A program made the position numbers and the translations under genes. A stretch of DNA of 40,957 bases from a virus (taxonomy: Duplodnaviria; Heunggongvirae; Uroviricota; Caudoviricetes): IMG/VR virus record IMGVR_UViG_2778261455_000003, positions 1 to 40,957 of that record; one strand, 5' to 3'. The first letter of the stretch is position 1; each line of letters opens with the position of its first letter. Positions 1,419 to 20,467 of the stretch are shown piece after piece. The notes under the pieces are model-generated. The model was not told the origin of the DNA. It saw only the letters and a list, made by a program, of their open reading frames with translations, and ran no database searches.

Positions 1419-2489
1419 TTATTTGATTTCAATTTTGTCCCACTCCCTGCCTCTGTCATCACGATATTGTGATGCCATGGTGTCCGACTTATGCCCGAGA
1501 AGATGTTGAGCAAACTTATCGCTTATCTGCTTCTCATAGAGTCTTGCAGACAAACTGCGCAACTCGTGAAAGGTAGGCGGATCCCCTTCGAAGGAAAGAC
1601 CTGATGCTTTTCGTGCGCGCATAAAATACCTTGATACTGTGCCGGATGAAAGCGGTTCACGACGAGTAGATGCAATTATGGTTTCTCCGCCAAGAATCTC
1701 TTTGCATTTATCAAGTGTTTCCTTCATTGATATCCCGAGAGCATCAACATGCAATGTTGTAGGGATGGCAATTTTTACGCCTGTTTTGCTTTGCTCGACA
1801 TAAAGATATCCATCTACGATATCAGACCACTTCATTTCGCATAAATCACCAACTCGCTGCCCGGTAACAACAGCCAGTTCCATTGCAAGTCTGAGCCAAC
1901 ATGGTGATGATTCTGCTGCTTGATAAATTTTCAGGTATTCGTCAGCCGTAAGTCTTGATCTCCTTACCTCTGATTTTGCTGCGCGAGTGGCAGCGACCGG
2001 GTTTGTTGTTATATGGCCTTCAGCTATTGCCTCTCGGAATGCATCGCTCAGTGTTGATCTGATTAACTTGGCTGACGCCGCCTTGCCCTCGTCTATGTAT
2101 CCATTGAGCATTGCCGCAATTTCTTTTGTGGTGATGTCTTCAAGTGGAGCATCAGGCAGACCCCTCCTTATTGCTTTAATTTTGCTCATGTAATTTATGA
2201 GTGTCTTCTGCTTGATTCCTCTGCTGGCGAGGATTTTTTCGTAGCGATCAAGCCATGAATGTAACGTAACAGAATTATCACTGTTGATTCTCGCTGTCAG
2301 AGGCTTGTGCTTGTGTCCTGAAAATAACTCAATGTTGGCCTGTATAGCTTCAGTGATTGCTATGCGTCTGTCTCGGCCTAATCCGAACTCTTTACCCGTC
2401 CTTGGGTCCCTGTAGCAGTAATATCCATTGTTTCTTATATAAAGGTTAGGGGGTAAATCCCGGCGCTCATGACTTCGCCTTCTTCCCAT
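1419..2489 (-). CDS. int: Tyrosine integrase, lambda Int type
   Basis: 356-aa ORF starting MGRRRSHERRDLPPNLYIRNNGYYCYRDPRTGKEF…, recognised as lambda Int; sits directly beside the attL P' arm. Confidence 0.95.
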   Translation of the reverse strand: MGRRRSHERRDLPPNLYIRNNGYYCYRDPRTGKEFGLGRDRRIAITEAIQANIELFSGHKHKPLTARINSDNSVTLHSWLDRYEKILASRGIKQKTLINYMSKIKAIRRGLPDAPLEDITTKEIAAMLNGYIDEGKAASAKLIRSTLSDAFREAIAEGHITTNPVAATRAAKSEVRRSRLTADEYLKIYQAAESSPCWLRLAMELAVVTGQRVGDLCEMKWSDIVDGYLYVEQSKTGVKIAIPTTLHVDALGISMKETLDKCKEILGGETIIASTRREPLSSGTVSRYFMRARKASGLSFEGDPPTFHELRSLSARLYEKQISDKFAQHLLGHKSDTMASQYRDDRGREWDKIEIK

Positions 2490-7342: not shown

Positions 7343-7650
7343 GCAGCTTCTCCATAAATATGTCTGCGTTTGAATATTGCGAAGGCATATTCAGCCTTAA
7401 CTCTTTCGGTTATTGCATCCCAGAACCATTCAGCGGCTTTTTCCTGATAGTTACAGTCATCATCTTCCAGCCAGTCGATAGCGTCCTTAGTATGTTCATC
7501 TGGTTTATATGAGCGAAGCATTTCGCTTATTGGGTCGCAACGTTTGCAGAGGCGATCAACTTCACTGTTGATTCGTTCGTAATCTTCATCAGTAAAACTT
7601 GCGATTATTTGCGATATTTCACGCTTATCATTCAGAGTCAGAATCATCAT
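7339..7650 (-). CDS. Hypothetical acidic protein (103 aa)
   Basis: ORF whose stop overlaps the recT start; no recognisable family. Confidence 0.4.
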   Translation of the reverse strand: MMILTLNDKREISQIIASFTDEDYERINSEVDRLCKRCDPISEMLRSYKPDEHTKDAIDWLEDDDCNYQEKAAEWFWDAITERVKAEYAFAIFKRRHIYGEAA

Positions 7651-7731
7651 CTTTCTCCTGTTCTTTGTGCTGATTGAGCATTTCTTTCATCTGACGAATG
7701 AATTCTTCGTCTAACCAGTTATCTGTAAAAC

Positions 7732-7884
7732 TCATTTCCTGCGATACCACGGAAGGTTGATAGCTGATTTCATCGCTTTATTTGCTTCAAGCCACATTTT
7801 TGAATCACCAATAAATCTGGCTATTACTGCTTTGTTCTGTGCAGCACGAAGCATCTGGTGATTAATGGCTATTTCATTGCGCAT
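7732..7884 (-). CDS. kil: Kil-like small protein (host cell-division inhibitor family)
   Basis: 50-aa ORF MRNEIAINHQMLRAAQNKAVIARFIGDSKMWLEANKAMKSAI…; resembles lambda Kil (…TIATFIGDEKMFREAVDAYKKWI…) and lies beside cIII as in lambda. Confidence 0.5.
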   Translation of the reverse strand: MRNEIAINHQMLRAAQNKAVIARFIGDSKMWLEANKAMKSAINLPWYRRK

Positions 7885-8003
7885 AACGCCTCCAGTTGTT
7901 TCTTTGCTGCTCTGATTAATTGTTTAACTCGGCGTGATAATTCAGATTCGTGCGGGTAGAAAGCGGACATGACGCCGCTACCCGCGAGCTGAAAGTGCAT
8001 CAT
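7869..8003 (-). CDS. cIII: cIII-like protein (FtsH inhibitor family)
   Basis: 44-aa ORF with RBS AAGGAG; MMHFQLAGSGVMSAFYPHESELSRRVKQLIRAAKKQL… has the lambda cIII pattern (…AIAGWPVAGCPSESLLERITRKL…). Confidence 0.55.
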   Translation of the reverse strand: MMHFQLAGSGVMSAFYPHESELSRRVKQLIRAAKKQLEALCAMK

Positions 8004-8068
8004 GGGTAACTCCTTATATTTGATTGCATAACGAAAACGCCTCAAGTGAAGCGTTATTGGTATGCATA

Positions 8069-8093
8069 TAAAAAGGCCCTCACACTGGAGGGC
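8069..8093 (-). terminator. Putative intrinsic terminator inside the pL operon
   Basis: On the minus strand GCCCTCCAGTGTGAGGGCC followed by TTTTT; a 6-bp GC stem, placed where N-mediated readthrough would be needed. Confidence 0.35.
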
Positions 8094-8188
8094 AAAGAAG
8101 ATTTCCAATAATCAGAACAAGTCGGCTCCTGTTTAGTTACGAGCGACATTGCTCCGTGTATTCACTCGTTGGAATGAATACACAGTGC

Positions 8189-8401
8189 TTATTCGCGAGC
8201 TTTGAGCATGGCATCAGCAATAAAGTAGGCATCATCTGCTAATTCTTTGTACTGTGGTGAATTCTGTCCACCACCAAAGGAATGTCCGTCCCATCTGCGC
8301 ACTATTGCTGCCATAGCCTTAGCAGCGAAGTAATCACGTAATGTCGCATCACTTGCAATTTCTGGGCGTTTGATATGTGCTTCATAAAACTCGCACATCA
8401 T
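8189..8401 (-). CDS. Hypothetical protein (70 aa)
   Basis: ORF overlapping the stop of the upstream gene (ATGA), in the cIII-to-N interval. Confidence 0.45.
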   Translation of the reverse strand: MMCEFYEAHIKRPEIASDATLRDYFAAKAMAAIVRRWDGHSFGGGQNSPQYKELADDAYFIADAMLKARE

Positions 8402-8694
8402 TCACCTCCCAGAGCCTTGCTGATTGCTGCAAGACCTTTATTAACAGCTCCATACCATTCTGGATATGTTGTCGTTGTTCTATTTTTGGATTGCTTAAGT
8501 AATAACTGAAGTGCTTCGAGAAGGTCAGGTGCTGCCGCTATTAAATTGGCATCTTCAATACATTGAACTTCCTCACAGATTGCAATATACGAACGCCAGC
8601 CTGCGCCATTTTCAAGTGAGTCTGCCTGGATTATTTTAATCTCATCGCCATCCATCATTATTTCCCACTTACCTTCAGTACCTTTAAATTCCAT
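8398..8694 (-). CDS. Hypothetical acidic protein (98 aa)
   Basis: ATG MEFKGTEGKW… preceded by AGAGG; the track's longer version begins at a TTG. Confidence 0.45.
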   Translation of the reverse strand: MEFKGTEGKWEIMMDGDEIKIIQADSLENGAGWRSYIAICEEVQCIEDANLIAAAPDLLEALQLLLKQSKNRTTTTYPEWYGAVNKGLAAISKALGGE

Positions 8695-8741
8695 GTTAGC
8701 CTCTGTTGTTAGTGCCAAAAATAAAGGCCGACTATGCGGCC

Positions 8742-8924
8742 TCAGAATGGGTTGTATCCATGTTTAAAGGCGAAATCGTATGCCTCACCCTTAGTGCTGA
8801 AGTATTCATAATCAGCAAATCCATCACGATAAAACTTGCAGCACCAATGAGGCGGAATGCCATCCTCAGGGCCATAGTTTTGATGGAAAACATCCTCGAC
8901 GATTATATTTTCATCTTTTCCCAT
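8742..8924 (-). CDS. Hypothetical protein (60 aa)
   Basis: ATG preceded by GGGGTGAG; MGKDENIIVEDVFHQNYGPEDGIPPHWCCKFYRDG…. Confidence 0.4.
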   Translation of the reverse strand: MGKDENIIVEDVFHQNYGPEDGIPPHWCCKFYRDGFADYEYFSTKGEAYDFAFKHGYNPF

Positions 8925-8978
8925 ATCTCACCCCAAATAAGTGGTTTGCTGCGAAAGTAAATACGCTTAAGTTACCTG

Positions 8979-9116
8979 TTATTTATCCCACCAAGTTCCG
9001 TATCTATCTATCCAGATACACCAATCATCGACACTCCATTTTGTTGTGTCGCATTTTGGCAACTGGCATGAATATCTACCTTCTTTGTAAAGTCGGCGTT
9101 TGACTTTCTTGAGCAT
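8979..9116 (-). CDS. Small Cys-containing hypothetical protein (45 aa)
   Basis: RBS GAGGTGA before the ATG; MLKKVKRRLYKEGRYSCQLPKCDTTKWSVDDWCIWIDRYGTWWDK; found by manual translation. Confidence 0.35.
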   Translation of the reverse strand: MLKKVKRRLYKEGRYSCQLPKCDTTKWSVDDWCIWIDRYGTWWDK

Positions 9117-9124
9117 GGCTCACC

Positions 9125-9430
9125 TCAATCGTAATAAGCTGGAATTGATTTTCCGCGTTGCTTCTGGCGGCCTGAGCAAGTCACACCCATTTCACTGCGT
9201 GGCTTGCGGTAGTAAATACGGTTCTGTTTACGCTCGACTTCTTCTGCCTTCTTGCAGCGAAGGCTTCCGAGTGATGCTGCTTTATCTGCTCTGACGCAAC
9301 CAGAGAGCTTTAGCGCAATTTTTCGCGCCAGTCGCTGCTCTTGCATTGCCTGTTCACGTTGAGCCTGTCTGCGTGCTCTGCGGCGATTTCTGGCGTTATC
9401 GTCAGCCAGATATGTAATGACTACTGTCAT
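9125..9430 (-). CDS. N: N-type transcription antiterminator
   Basis: 101-aa ORF with RBS GGAGG; arginine-rich N-terminal motif NARNRRRARRQAQ; C-terminus …YYRKPRSEMGVTCSGRQKQRGKSIP resembles lambda N …WYSKPGERGITCSGRQKIKGKSIP. Confidence 0.75.
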   Translation of the reverse strand: MTVVITYLADDNARNRRRARRQAQREQAMQEQRLARKIALKLSGCVRADKAASLGSLRCKKAEEVERKQNRIYYRKPRSEMGVTCSGRQKQRGKSIPAYYD

Positions 9431-9740
9431 GTTGACCTCCGATGAAACAACTTTGGAATTGATAGTGATTGCAAAGTGGTTTCTGGCCCCTCGAACTGAG
9501 GGGCAGAAAGAGCATCTCGCCACCTAATAGGTCAATGCTCGGATCGAGAGATTTAATTAACCTCGGTTTTGAAGTTATGCATTCACATAAATCCTCCTGT
9601 TGCATGTGCAGCATTGGCTGTGTTTGGCGGCTGCATTTCGCCTATGGAATTGACTTTGGCGGTGACGCGCCGGGTGCTTATCTTCCGGTTGCCGTCGTGC
9701 AGCTGCACTTCACGTCACCCCAAAGCCAACTACTCTTTGG

Positions 9741-9782
9741 TTCCCGCATTTCGGCGGGACAATCCCATCAATGTTAAAGAGC
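9741..9782 (-). promoter_or_regulatory. nutL-like site (boxA GCTCTTTAACA, boxB hairpin TCCCGCCGAAATGCGGGA)
   Basis: Read on the minus strand between the candidate pL and N; the same boxA and boxB recur on the plus strand downstream of cro. Confidence 0.55.
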
Positions 9783-9828
9783 CTGCCAATCTGTTCCGTT
9801 TGGCTTCCAGCGTCCTGCTGATGGCTAA

Positions 9829-9916
9829 AGAATACTGTAGGTATTTTATTGTGTAAATACCCAAGGTATTTATTTTTGGTGAAATAATGATAAGCAAATG
9901 AATACAAAGGATATTT
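9829..9916 (-). promoter_or_regulatory. Candidate OL operators and pL promoter
   Basis: Three 17-bp inverted repeats of the AATAC-N5-GTATT type at 9830..9846, 9855..9871 and 9900..9916; minus-strand -35 TTTACA and -10 TATTCT with 17-bp spacing overlap them. Confidence 0.5.
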
Positions 9917-10001
9917 ATTTTTTCGGTGTCTGCTTGTTCAGTGCTTTTTATGCGGGATATGTGAAGTGGATCCCGATAGCTATTGCTGCCGGGATTATAG
10001 G

Positions 10002-10370
10002 TTAGTCAGCGAAGGTTAAGACGAGAATTACCTTAATGATGTCTGCTACAACAGACACGGCCATAGATAAACCAAAGACGATCCAAGCCACAGTGATGTC
10101 TTCACTACCATCGTATAGAGTTCCGTAATCACTGGTGTAAGGCGTAAATGTCGCGCCTTGATACAACAGGTATAAGCTTGATCCATAGAGGATAAATGCA
10201 GATATCCCTTGTATTGCTATGACCACTAGAATCATGAAACGAGCTGATCTATGCGCCCAAGCCTGGCTTATTTTTTCTGATAGAGATTTCGCAATAAAAG
10301 CATGCGCTAAGCCGTAAATTGTTGAGATTGCCAACATCCCAAAAAAGCTTGCTATAGCGGTTCCAACCAT
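10002..10370 (-). CDS. Small multi-pass membrane protein co-transcribed downstream of cI; unknown function
   Basis: ATG preceded by AAGGGGAG, 15 nt after the cI stop; about 122 aa with three long hydrophobic segments; occupies the rexAB position relative to cI and N. Confidence 0.55.
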   Translation of the reverse strand: MVGTAIASFFGMLAISTIYGLAHAFIAKSLSEKISQAWAHRSARFMILVVIAIQGISAFILYGSSLYLLYQGATFTPYTSDYGTLYDGSEDITVAWIVFGLSMAVSVVADIIKVILVLTFAD

Positions 10371-10387
10371 AAGCTCCCCTTGCGTGA

Positions 10388-11104
10388 TCAAACCAGCCTT
10401 AGTTTTGTCTCAATTGCAACGCCTATAATCTTGCAGTTTCCATTGATTGGCACGAGAGGCCATGCAGGATTAAGTCCCTTGAGGTATTTATTTCCGCCGT
10501 CGATTATCAGCTTCTTGAATGTTGCTTCGTTAGAGTCAGAAAGTTTTGCTATGACCAAGCTGCCGTTGATCGCCTCCCTTCCGGTATCGAAAAGAACGAA
10601 TGTCCCCTCTGGGATGCTTAACCCAACCGGTGCCGTCATTGAATCACCTTCCACTTTAAGCCAGAACGCATTACCTTGAATATGCGCGTCAGACTCAAGC
10701 CAAACATCTATGTCTTTAATGGTGTATGGTTCGCATGCTTCACACCACGAGCCAGCCTGGATACTGCTTAACACCGGATACCTCTTTCCTGCTCTGTATT
10801 CCCCTGCATACCTTACGTTGGCATCGCTCTTAAGGCTTTCTGCCTGTTCTGCAACCTTGGCAGCAATTGACTGGCTAAAATCAGCAATTGAGACTTGCAA
10901 CAAACGTGCAAAACCAGATGCGACCTCAACGTTTAGCGCGTTTCTGCCATTAAGATAATGCCCTACCGCTCCTTGGGTGATACCCAGTTCATCAGCGATT
11001 GAGTATTGGGTTATTCCCAATTCTTTCTTTTTTGACTCATACAAAGCCTTAAGCCGCTTAGCGTCTTCGAGCTGTTCTGTCGTCAGTGATTTTTTATTTT
11101 CCAT
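10388..11104 (-). CDS. cI: CI-type prophage repressor (HTH plus LexA-like S24 domain)
   Basis: 238-aa ORF; N-terminus …LTTEQLEDAKRLKALYESKKKELGITQ…, similar to lambda cI …[27 protein letters not shown]…; C-terminal GDSMTAP / FKKLI motifs. Confidence 0.9.
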   Translation of the reverse strand: MENKKSLTTEQLEDAKRLKALYESKKKELGITQYSIADELGITQGAVGHYLNGRNALNVEVASGFARLLQVSIADFSQSIAAKVAEQAESLKSDANVRYAGEYRAGKRYPVLSSIQAGSWCEACEPYTIKDIDVWLESDAHIQGNAFWLKVEGDSMTAPVGLSIPEGTFVLFDTGREAINGSLVIAKLSDSNEATFKKLIIDGGNKYLKGLNPAWPLVPINGNCKIIGVAIETKLRLV

Positions 11105-20028: not shown

Positions 20029-20467
20029 TAGCGATAATTTTACTCATCATCCTTCACATCTGGCTCTGTAGACAGGGTGGTGATCACTTCTGGAGTGAAT
20101 CCAGATTAAACATCTCATTGCTGATGCTTGATATTGAGCATCTTGCGCGCGGTAAGGGGCTGCGTTGAGATAAGAGCCAGTTCATTACAAAGCCTATCTA
20201 CGGGTGGGCTTGATAATGAAACCAAAATTTATTCTGGGTAACCAGTTACGGCAGTACAGCGAAACAACCCAAGCCAGAAAGTGGGGAAATAACACTGGCA
20301 GCCACTGAAAGATGAACCTCCAGCCTTATGGCTAAAAAGATTCTTTGTGGTGGCGGACTGATGGAAAGACATCGGATAGAATCAAGCAGTGGCTAGGGTA
20401 GCTCCCGAAAAGCGGACTCGTCACCGCCTGCCACTGAATCTATGGCGAACAACTAGACGAGGTTGTG

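What the first reader, a model, noticed from the sequence alone, without database searches (positions are those of the whole stretch)
8189..9116. Run of four small unknown ORFs between cIII and N (early-left moron / anti-defence position)
Four tightly packed small ORFs (70, 98, 60 and 45 aa), each with a plausible RBS and two overlapping stop/start, lie just downstream of N in the pL operon. In lambda this interval holds ral, sieB and ea10, and the equivalent region of lambdoid phages is a known hotspot for anti-restriction and other host-takeover genes. None matches a family I recognise; the 98-aa product is acidic and the 45-aa product carries a Cys cluster (CQLPKC…WC).
Basis: partly seen in the sequence, partly recalled or inferred. 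Interest (0 to 1): 0.6.

Follow-up and report, generated by a model that had tools for sequence, protein, structure and literature searches.

The report
Four small early-left phage accessory genes
The four small genes are real and sit between N and cIII of a lambda-like phage, in a cassette-swapping region, but all belong to already catalogued families of unknown function and nothing yet shows they block host defences.

Summary
The four minus-strand ORFs exist as described: A 8189-8401 (70 aa), B 8398-8694 (98 aa), C 8742-8924 (60 aa), D 8979-9116 (45 aa), all between N and cIII, each with an RBS. All four are conserved protein-coding genes, but they are not orphans.

- D is Pfam DUF5484 and a 52%-identical homologue of T4 gp55.4. 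Its Cys residues are absent from the T4 copies.
- B is Pfam PF27050 (Phage_P22_Y8K6; PGAP "XkdD/Y8K6 family"), with about 13,000 clusters at 50% identity.
- A is a two-helix "LRDYFAAKAM…ADAMLKARE" family with no Pfam model.
- C is a rare family (PHROG 37822) under purifying selection.

None matches a Ral, PADLOC, PDB or other named family. Structure models are generic helical hairpins.

The region is a cassette mosaic joined by conserved linkers that carry intrinsic terminators. mEpX1 has D and C but lacks B and A. One prophage carries Ral exactly where C sits. The full D-C-B-A block recurs at about 99% identity in several draft E. coli prophages.

D and C lie upstream of the first terminator after N, so they are probably immediate-early. 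B and A probably need antitermination.

Only one stop/start overlap exists (B/A), not two.

An anti-defence role is plausible from position only. The finding is ordinary and of modest interest.

The parts
8979..9116 (-). ORF D, 45 aa, basic (pI 9.4), Trp-rich. Member of Pfam DUF5484 and homologue of T4 gp55.4, Sf6 gene 36 and mEpX1_038.
   Evidence: Pfam PF17583 at 45.7 bits (cut-off 27) and PHROG 1871. 52% identity over nearly its full length to T4 and SP18 gp55.4. tblastn finds it in 944 phage records, mostly T-even-like. Present in 145 of 5426 complete E. coli genomes, where it is unannotated.
8742..8924 (-). ORF C, 60 aa, acidic (pI 4.7). A rare family restricted to enterobacterial lambdoid phages (PHROG 37822; mEpX1_037).
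   Evidence: PHROG 37822, E 4e-45. Only 4 clusters at 90% identity in 5.8 billion proteins. pN/pS 0.24 in this frame against 1.17 for the open antisense frame. Present in 16 of 5426 complete E. coli genomes.
8714..8743 (-). Intrinsic-terminator-like hairpin plus U-tract, overlapping the stop codon of ORF C. It is the first terminator downstream of N (tL1-like) and forms part of a conserved 41-bp linker (8702-8742).
   Evidence: Terminator scan. Fold dG -12.8 kcal/mol, z -2.5. The linker is conserved at 94-98% in mEpX1, mEpX2, CUS-3 and others, whatever gene lies upstream.
8398..8694 (-). ORF B, 98 aa, acidic (pI 4.5). Pfam PF27050 (Phage_P22_Y8K6), PGAP 'XkdD/Y8K6 family phage-associated protein', PHROG 1273. 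Weakly predicted N-terminal beta domain followed by a confident helical hairpin carrying the motif LIAAAPDLLEAL.
   Evidence: PHROG 1273, E 8e-32. All close homologues carry PF27050. PGAP name seen. 13,321 representative clusters at E<=1e-3. AlphaFold2 model with pLDDT 73 overall and 86-93 in the helices. Invariant residues listed.
8189..8401 (-). ORF A, 70 aa. Its start overlaps the stop of B (ATGA). Two-helix hairpin family with conserved ends LRDYFAAKAM and ADAMLKARE and an exchangeable middle. No Pfam model.
   Evidence: PHROG 2201 (C-terminal part, E 2e-19), 37111 and 20565. 443 homologues, none with a Pfam domain except one fused to Lambda_CIII. Alignment. AlphaFold2 helices 21-36 and 49-69. 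Middle-segment swaps.
8066..8188 (-). Conserved 123-bp linker downstream of ORF A. It contains a 13-bp perfect hairpin (8184-8155) and a terminator-like hairpin (8093-8076 plus U-tract).
   Evidence: 96-98% identical in mEpX1, mEpX2, phi458, CUS-3 and several prophages, with different flanking genes. Hairpin dG -21.7, z -5.9; terminator dG -10.7. The corresponding mEpX1 site is annotated as a rho-independent terminator in JQ182727.
8026..8055 (-). Second terminator-like hairpin, upstream of cIII.
   Evidence: dG -9.9 kcal/mol; weak T-tract.
9125..9430 (-). N-type antiterminator gene, immediately upstream of ORF D (context).
   Evidence: PHROG 271, E 2e-36; Pfam N_peptide weak and below its cut-off.
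9742..9782 (-). Putative nutL: boxA GCTCTTTAACA (9782-9772) and a boxB-like hairpin (9759-9742). Context for N-dependent read-through.
   Evidence: Read from the sequence. The homologous stretch of mEpX1 is annotated 'putative Nut boxA site'.
7869..8003 (-). cIII gene, the downstream boundary of the interval (context).
   Evidence: Pfam cIII PF08134, E 2e-30.

Best explanation
The interval holds four separate, horizontally exchanged accessory genes of the early-left (pL) operon of a lambdoid phage. It is not one system.

Shown here:
- All four are conserved protein-coding genes with their own RBS.
- They lie on the pL-N-cIII-kil strand.
- They are separated by conserved linker sequences that carry intrinsic-terminator hairpins, and gene cassettes are swapped between phages at these linkers. 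The units are D, C plus its terminator, and B plus A.

Inferred:
- D and C lie between N and the first intrinsic terminator, so they are made together with N as immediate-early products.
- B and A lie beyond that terminator and need N-mediated read-through (delayed-early).
- All four are repressed in the lysogen.
- Each product is a small soluble protein, 45-98 aa, with no enzyme-like fold. It most likely acts by binding and modulating a host protein, or a protein of a competing element. This is how the characterised small early proteins of this slot (Ral, Nun) and of the T4 55.x cluster (55.1, 55.2) act.

Inhibition of a host defence system is one plausible subclass of such a role, but it is not demonstrated for any of the four.
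For: Coding status:
- Exact or near-exact copies occur in many genomes.
- Family hits: DUF5484, PF27050 and PHROGs 1273, 2201, 37822 and 1871.
- pN/pS is 0.24 for C.
- D is 52% identical to T4 gp55.4.

Operon and order:
- pL-like promoter, nutL, N, D, C, terminator, B, A, hairpin and terminators, cIII, kil, all on the minus strand.
- No promoter signal above chance: 7 sites found against 8.6 expected.

Cassette mosaic:
- mEpX1 joins window 8702 directly to 8189, so it lacks B and A.
- Prophage SC407 is 100% identical over 7500-8742 but has another gene in place of C.
- Prophage BUCT2930 has Ral in the slot of C.
- Linkers 8066-8188, 8702-8742 and 8914-8956 are conserved throughout.
- The whole block recurs with different N and immunity modules.

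Independence of the genes:
- The gene after B is A-like in only about 12 of 80 viral loci.
- A-family genes are stand-alone in 59 of 71 loci.
- Prevalence in complete E. coli genomes differs widely: A 48, B 160, C 16, D 145.

Protein nature:
- Models show only helical hairpins.
- No domain fusions appear among the best 150 of about 13,000 B-family clusters.

Precedent: T4 55.1 and 55.2, neighbours of 55.4, modulate FolD/UvrA and topoisomerase I (PMC4396842).
Against: - No expression, interaction or phenotype data exist for any of the four. Literature searches found none.
- The terminator assignments rest on sequence and folding alone. The temporal classes are inferred by analogy with lambda tL1.
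- The 4-nt B/A overlap, and the fact that 11 of the 12 A genes of this lambdoid subtype follow a B gene, leave room for functional coupling of B and A.
- 'Binds a host protein' is a generic prediction for small phage proteins and is weakly constrained by the data.
Confidence: 0.7

Rival explanations
1. One reading: one or more of the four proteins is an anti-restriction or other anti-defence factor, made early to neutralise a host immune system before phage DNA is attacked.
For: - The slot is shared with known counter-defence and exclusion genes. Ral sits exactly in the position of ORF C in prophage BUCT2930. Ral, SieB-type proteins and Nun occupy the interval in N7, ECP1, HK140, CUS-3, mEpX1 and mEp235.
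- D and C lie before the first terminator, so they would be among the first proteins made.
- D, and the N-terminal half of B, also occur in virulent T-even-like and roughly 145-kb myoviruses. That fits a host-directed rather than a lysogeny-specific role.
- B and C are acidic, and the B family has a median pI of 4.9.
- Both A and B show conserved scaffold ends with hypervariable middles, a pattern expected under an arms race.
Against: - No similarity to any named anti-defence family or solved structure.
- The conserved residues of B are hydrophobic or Ala-rich rather than acidic, so DNA mimicry of the Ocr/ArdA type is not indicated.
- The same slot also holds genes with unrelated roles, such as Ea10 and a TolA-like gene.
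- The characterised T4 neighbours of the D homologue act on host metabolism and DNA topology, not on immunity.
Confidence: 0.3
2. B and A form an obligate two-protein unit, translationally coupled and acting as a heterodimer or as a toxin/antidote-like pair, rather than two independent genes.
For: - The stop of B and the start of A overlap by 4 nt (ATGA).
- B and A are inserted or deleted together relative to mEpX1.
- 11 of the 12 A genes of this lambdoid subtype directly follow a B gene.
- An A-like gene also follows distant B relatives in L036, L041, L044 and L050.
- Both are predicted helical hairpins.
Against: - B is followed, usually with the same ATGA overlap, by at least six unrelated small genes in other phages, including 62-aa, 52-aa and 42-aa genes and a TraR/DksA-like gene.
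- 59 of 71 A-family genes have no B nearby.
- B-like sequence occurs in 160 complete E. coli genomes but A-like sequence in only 48.
Confidence: 0.15
3. They are morons or lysogenic-conversion genes expressed from the prophage, for example superinfection exclusion in the manner of SieB or Nun.
For: Exclusion genes (sieB-type, nun) occupy the same interval in relatives. ORF C is followed by its own terminator.
Against: - All four lie in the sense orientation of the repressor-controlled pL operon.
- No promoter signal rises above the shuffled expectation. The single 10/12 match lies inside ORF C.
- There are no hydrophobic segments of the kind found in SieB-type membrane proteins.
- Homologues of D, and of part of B, occur in strictly virulent phages.
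Confidence: 0.1
4. Some of the ORFs, especially the 45-aa and 60-aa ones, are chance ORFs or cover a non-coding RNA or regulatory element.
For: - D is not annotated in RefSeq genomes or in phi458.
- Two GenBank re-annotations call the antisense ORF opposite C.
- A frameshifted copy of C exists.
Against: - D is conserved at 52% protein identity between lambdoid and T4-like phages and passes the Pfam cut-off.
- C shows a third-position excess and pN/pS 0.24 in its own frame, against 1.17 antisense.
- No Rfam family matches in 7800-10000.
Confidence: 0.03

Closest known systems
T4 gp55.4 / Pfam DUF5484 (PF17583); also Sf6 gene 36 and mEpX1_038
   Same: ORF D aligns over nearly its full length with T4 and SP18 gp55.4 at 52% identity. 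22 positions are invariant, including KR.L.K.G.Y, PK.DTTKWSV.DW, ID and G.W. It passes the Pfam gathering score. Like 55.4, it is a tiny gene in an early, non-structural cluster.
   Different: The host phage is temperate and lambdoid rather than a virulent T-even. The three Cys residues of the lambdoid subtype are Leu/Asn, Gly and Ile in the T4 type. Neither protein has a known function.
Pfam PF27050 Phage_P22_Y8K6 / NCBI 'XkdD/Y8K6 family phage-associated protein' / PHROG 1273
   Same: ORF B has the family hallmarks: N-terminal G-T-x-G-x-W, the central LIAAAPDLLEAL helix and the C-terminal A-I-x-K-A-x-G. It is a stand-alone protein of about 100 aa, like nearly all of the best 150 of the 13,321 clusters matched.
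   Different: Nothing separates it from the family. The family itself is uncharacterised. The local Pfam and NCBIfam copies lack the model, so membership rests on precomputed annotation of proteins 90-100% identical to it, and on the PGAP name.
Lambda Ral (restriction alleviation) and the ral/sieB/ea10 interval of lambda
   Same: Same operon and interval, downstream of N and upstream of cIII. Ral occupies the exact slot of ORF C in one prophage. All are small, non-essential early genes.
   Different: No sequence similarity between C and Ral, and no Ral or Lar model hit for any of the four ORFs. No evidence of restriction alleviation.
T4 ORFans 55.1 and 55.2 (host-protein modulators)
   Same: Small early proteins from the same T4 gene cluster as the homologue of D. 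They act by binding host proteins: FolD/UvrA for 55.1 and topoisomerase I for 55.2 (PMC4396842). This is the working model adopted here.
   Different: They have no sequence relationship to any of the four ORFs. The analogy is by gene class and neighbourhood only.
Boundary sequences (bsq) of lambdoid and P22-like phages
   Same: Short conserved stretches flank exchangeable gene modules. CUS-3 is annotated with 'bsq5; boundary sequence' next to N. The linkers at 8066-8188, 8702-8742 and 8914-8956 behave the same way.
   Different: Here the linkers coincide with intrinsic terminators and one RBS region. Similar conserved-end, variable-middle exchange also occurs inside ORFs A and B.

Membership tests
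Pfam DUF5484 (PF17583) / T4 gp55.4 family (ORF D) | Score above the Pfam gathering threshold over the whole domain | tested here: met
   45.7 bits against a cut-off of 27; residues 5-42 match profile positions 3-41 of 43.
Pfam DUF5484 (PF17583) / T4 gp55.4 family (ORF D) | Full-length alignment to T4 gp55.4 with a conserved core | tested here: met
   52% identity to T4 and SP18 gp55.4, with 22 invariant columns.
   C17, C22 and C33 are replaced by L/N, G and I in the T4-type members. There are only three Cys and no His.
Pfam PF27050 Phage_P22_Y8K6 / XkdD-Y8K6 family (ORF B) | Match to the family model | tested here: met
   The model is absent from the local Pfam and NCBIfam copies, so the test is indirect. 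PF27050 is precomputed on the representative of the exact-sequence cluster and on nearly all of the 120 listed homologues, and on the 98-aa gene in contigs 99% identical to the window. PGAP names a 99%-identical copy 'XkdD/Y8K6 family'.
Pfam PF27050 Phage_P22_Y8K6 / XkdD-Y8K6 family (ORF B) | Conserved motifs: GTxGxW at the N-terminus, LIAAAP[DE]LLEAL, and the C-terminal AIxKAxG | tested here: met
   Invariant G5, T6, G8, W10, L51, I52, A54, A55, P56, L58, L59 and L62. The central motif is present in 101 of 140 distant representatives and the N-terminal motif in 130 of 140.
Ral / Lar restriction-alleviation proteins | Sequence similarity to the Ral or Lar families | tested here: not met
   No Pfam, NCBIfam or PHROG hit to such families for any of A-D at permissive E-values. 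ORF C against a Ral protein gives no alignment at E<=100.
Ral / Lar restriction-alleviation proteins | Alleviation of type I restriction in vivo | not testable with these tools
   Needs plating assays on EcoKI or EcoBI hosts.
DNA-mimic anti-restriction proteins (Ocr / ArdA type), considered for acidic ORF B | Very high, conserved negative surface charge that mimics DNA | tested here: not met
   Net charge is only -7 over 98 aa. The invariant positions are hydrophobic, Ala or Gly, not acidic. No structural match to the PDB.
Moron (autonomous promoter-gene-terminator unit expressed from the prophage) | Own promoter upstream of the gene | tested here: not met
   7 promoter-like sites found against 8.6 +/- 2.8 expected in shuffles. 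None is placed upstream of an ORF start; the best match lies inside ORF C. A consensus scan only, so a weak test.
Moron (autonomous promoter-gene-terminator unit expressed from the prophage) | Own terminator downstream | tested here: met
   True for ORF C only (hairpin 8743-8724 plus U-tract), and for the B-A pair (8093-8076).
Known anti-phage defence system components (PADLOC) | Match to a defence-system protein model | tested here: not met
   No hit at E<=1 for any of the four.
Curated anti-defence families (anti-CRISPR, anti-CBASS, anti-Thoeris and others) | Match to a dedicated anti-defence profile library | not testable with these tools
   No such library is available here. Only Pfam, PHROGs, the PDB and BFVD were searched, all negative.

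The most novel reading that the evidence does not exclude
At least one of the four is a new type of inhibitor of a host defence system. The best candidates are ORF C, which occupies the exact Ral slot, and ORF D, the immediate-early homologue of T4 gp55.4. A third is the very large, uncharacterised Y8K6/XkdD family represented by ORF B, whose conserved helical scaffold could present hypervariable target-binding inserts. If B were the one, a functional label would extend to about 13,000 protein clusters across phages of many hosts.
Probability: 0.25. Interest if true: 0.6.

Novelty: already known. Interest (0 to 1): 0.3.

Why it matters
The finding adds little as it stands. These are catalogued hypothetical proteins in a textbook mosaic region of lambdoid phages.

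Its value is as a set of experimental targets:
1. The Y8K6/XkdD family (ORF B) is one of the larger uncharacterised phage protein families, at about 13,000 clusters at 50% identity.
2. DUF5484 (ORF D) is shared between temperate lambdoid and virulent T4-like phages. That points to a target common to enterobacterial hosts.
3. ORF C is allelic in position to Ral.

The placement of D and C upstream of the first terminator after N gives a testable prediction: they should be immediate-early products.

Tried and rejected
- **Rac YdaG as a DUF5484 member.** I guessed from memory that E. coli Rac YdaG belongs to DUF5484. Translating ydaG and ydaF showed unrelated sequences, so I dropped the idea.
- **PDB sequence searches.** Searches with the four single proteins and with profiles of the A and B families found nothing below E 0.1.
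- **Fold searches.** The AlphaFold2 models of B and A against the PDB gave no match at E<=0.001, only generic helical hairpins. B against BFVD matched only uncharacterised viral proteins. The afdb50 library was not available.
- **Family libraries.** NCBIfam and PADLOC gave nothing. Pfam scans of ten distant B-family proteins found only sub-threshold noise.
- **Domain fusions.** I looked for informative fusions of the B family among the best 150 representatives. The only long hits are spurious repeat proteins, and two others are tandem duplications.
- **Obligate B-A pairing.** Tested across 80 + 71 viral loci and not supported.
- **RNA families.** Rfam found none in the interval.
- **Literature.** Searches for DUF5484, PF27050, gp55.4, XkdD, mEpX1 and pL-operon anti-defence found no functional data.
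- **Rac kilS comparison.** An attempted comparison with the Rac kilS region failed on a file-name error and was not repeated.
- **ORF C versus Ral.** No similarity.
Full report
**Observation**

The window is a lambdoid phage or prophage whose early region most resembles mEpX1, HK140 and HZ41. Reading the minus strand from right to left gives this order:

| Feature | Coordinates | Note |
|---|---|---|
| cI-like repressor | 10388-11104 | |
| pL-like promoter | 9857-9829 | |
| nutL, boxA | 9782-9772 | GCTCTTTAACA |
| nutL, boxB-like hairpin | 9759-9742 | |
| N-type antiterminator | 9125-9430 | PHROG 271 |
| ORF D | 8979-9116 | 45 aa |
| ORF C | 8742-8924 | 60 aa |
| ORF B | 8398-8694 | 98 aa |
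| ORF A | 8189-8401 | 70 aa |
| cIII | 7869-8003 | |
| kil | 7732-7884 | |

There is one correction: only B and A overlap stop to start (ATGA). The other junctions have gaps of 8, 54 and 47 nt.

**Are they genes?**

Yes, all four.
- Exact copies of A, B and C are in public collections. The 90% cluster of B has 653 members and that of C has 68.
- D passes the Pfam gathering threshold for DUF5484. It is 52% identical over nearly its whole length to T4 and SP18 gp55.4.
- C has only one truly divergent relative, about 67-70% identical. Against it, differences concentrate at third codon positions (9, 15 and 31 by position). pN/pS is 0.24 in the ORF C frame. The antisense frame is also open, and two GenBank re-annotations call it, but its pN/pS is 1.17.
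- No Rfam family matches the interval.

**What the proteins are**

*ORF D* is DUF5484, the T4 gp55.4 family. tblastn finds it in 944 phage records, mostly T-even-like, and in a few lambdoid phages (phi458, mEpX1_038, 'Sf6 gene 36') directly after N or Nun.

*ORF B* belongs to PF27050, Phage_P22_Y8K6. I saw the name. PGAP calls a 99%-identical copy 'XkdD/Y8K6 family phage-associated protein'.
- A profile search finds 13,321 clusters at 50% identity. Nearly all of the best 150 listed are stand-alone proteins of about 90-120 aa, with no informative fusions.
- The hallmarks are GTxGxW, LIAAAPDLLEAL and a C-terminal AIxKAxG.
- AlphaFold2 gives a weak N-terminal beta region and a confident helical hairpin.
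- The segments between the conserved motifs vary in sequence and length. They are shuffled even among E. coli prophages.

*ORF A* belongs to a family with no Pfam model: 443 homologues, and the C-terminal part of PHROG 2201.
- The model is a two-helix hairpin with conserved ends (LRDYFAAKAM and ADAMLKARE) and at least four alternative middles.
- Most members start with GGPAFP and stand alone.
- One sampled locus (L130) again places the gene between a cI-like repressor and RecT.

*ORF C* belongs to PHROG 37822, a very small family with only 4 clusters at 90% identity.

None of the four matches a Ral or Lar model, any other named Pfam, PHROG or NCBIfam family, PADLOC, or the PDB by sequence. A and B, the two that could be modelled, also have no PDB match by fold. 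Literature searches found no functional data for any of these families.

**Architecture and mosaicism**

Pairwise DNA comparison shows sharp junctions.
- mEpX1 matches 8010-8189 and then continues at 8702-9228. It therefore has D, C and the terminator but lacks the 512-bp B-A cassette.
- Prophage SC407 is 100% identical over 7500-8742 (kil to the terminator, including A and B) but has a different gene in place of C.
- Prophage BUCT2930 has N, D, the conserved linker, then Ral where C sits, then B and a middle-swapped A.
- The conserved linkers are 8066-8188, 8702-8742 and 8914-8956.

The first two linkers carry intrinsic-terminator-like hairpins. One is at 8743-8724 with a U-tract (dG -12.8). 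The other is at 8093-8076 (dG -10.7), and its mEpX1 counterpart is annotated as a rho-independent terminator. The first linker also holds a strong 13-bp hairpin at 8184-8155 (dG -21.7, z -5.9). This behaviour matches the 'boundary sequences' annotated in CUS-3.

No record in the phage collection, and no complete E. coli genome, carries all four ORFs together. The contiguous D-C-B-A block does recur at about 99% identity in several draft E. coli assemblies and one metagenome scaffold, combined with different N and immunity modules. Among 5426 complete E. coli genomes, A-like sequence is found in 48 (8 full-length), B in 160, C in 16 and D in 145.

**Are B and A a pair?**

The ATGA overlap and the joint insertion or deletion suggest coupling. 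Across 80 viral loci with a B relative, however, the next gene is A-like in only about 12. In the rest, at least six unrelated small genes take that position, often with the same overlap. Of 71 loci with an A relative, 59 have no B nearby. Obligate pairing is therefore unlikely, although the lambdoid subtype of A nearly always follows B.

**Most likely working**

What is shown: four independent, conserved, small cytoplasmic-type proteins are encoded in the sense direction of the pL operon. They sit in exchangeable cassettes bounded by terminator-bearing linkers.

What is inferred:
- D and C lie between N and the first intrinsic terminator, with no terminator-like site between 9125 and 8743. 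They should therefore be co-expressed with N as immediate-early products.
- B and A should require N-dependent read-through.
- All four should be silent in the lysogen, since promoter-like matches do not exceed chance.
- Given their size, the lack of enzyme folds and the lack of fusions, each most likely acts by binding a host or competitor protein.

There is precedent on both sides. Ral, Nun and SieB-type proteins are the alternative occupants of the interval. In the T4 55.x cluster, 55.1 acts on FolD and UvrA, and 55.2 inhibits topoisomerase I (PMC4396842). As noted for phage L, most early-left genes of these phages still have no known function (PMC8022706).

The 'hotspot' argument is sound and is now documented at base-pair resolution. 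It is still guilt by position. Anti-defence activity is plausible; I put it at about 0.25-0.3 for at least one ORF. Host-physiology modulation is at least as likely. 'Moron' is not supported. B is mildly acidic, and so is its family (median pI 4.9), but its conserved residues are hydrophobic, so DNA mimicry is not indicated.

**Verdict**

The ORFs are real and correctly located. The finding is ordinary: already catalogued hypothetical-protein families in a well-known mosaic interval. Its interest is modest (0.3). It rests on the size of the uncharacterised Y8K6/XkdD family, on the sharing of DUF5484 between temperate and virulent phages, and on the positional equivalence of ORF C with Ral. Each of these gives a clear experiment.

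Noticed in passing
window 20386-20448 (+): Match to the Rfam int-alpA sRNA family (RF02996): 45.1 bits against a gathering score of 35.8. It is the only Rfam hit in the window.
   Followed up: no
window 10002-10391 (-): A hydrophobic 122-129-aa ORF overlaps the stop codon of the cI-like repressor gene (10388-11104). It matches PHROG 6534 (unknown function, E 5e-79). Its position, co-transcribed with the repressor, is that of rex or sie-type lysogen-expressed genes.
   Followed up: partly
window 8155-8184 (-), within linker 8066-8188: A perfect 13-bp hairpin (dG -21.7 kcal/mol, z -5.9) lies just after the stop of ORF A. It sits in a 123-bp stretch that is 96-98% conserved in many lambdoid phages whatever the flanking genes. 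It may be an RNA processing or regulatory element upstream of cIII, or a recombination linker.
   Followed up: partly
window ~9482-9514 (-): A second boxA/boxB-like element, TGCTCTTTC followed by the hairpin GCCCCT-cagttcg-AGGGGC, lies about 50-80 nt upstream of the N start codon. It is additional to the nutL-like site at 9742-9782.
   Followed up: no
window 8979-9116; RefSeq E. coli genomes; phage phi458 OP434518: The 45-aa DUF5484 gene is left unannotated in all five listed RefSeq E. coli genomes that carry it (145 carry it in total), and in phi458.
   Followed up: yes
L002 1699-1947 (+) and L003 2291-2560 (+) (mEpX1/mEpX2 re-annotations PV340543 and PV340544); window 8706-8960 (+): These records annotate the ORF antisense to ORF C. 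Codon-position bias and pN/pS (0.24 sense, 1.17 antisense) indicate that the minus-strand ORF C is the real gene.
   Followed up: yes
L008 3701-3892 and L009 2485-2676: The ORF C relative P0273 is a frameshifted copy. After HWCCKF it continues in the alternative frame. This is either an assembly error or a pseudogene.
   Followed up: partly
window 8539-8685 (aa 4-52 of ORF B); e.g. Klebsiella phage KpS8 MT178275 19656-19802: The N-terminal half of ORF B alone is 45-55% identical to part of a gene in roughly 135-170-kb virulent myoviruses of Klebsiella, Salmonella, Proteus and Cronobacter. The Y8K6 protein therefore appears to be built from two separable modules.
   Followed up: no
window 8221-8303 (inside ORF A); L164 and L166: An in-frame 83-bp segment in the middle of ORF A is replaced by unrelated sequence in other prophages, while both flanks stay 95-97% identical. 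This is mosaic exchange below the level of a gene.
   Followed up: partly
L166 ~2027-2090 (-): In prophage BUCT2930, a short and very acidic ORF (MEEEFEEFEEHPQDV…, PHROG 16060) starts at the conserved RBS linker just upstream of ral.
   Followed up: no
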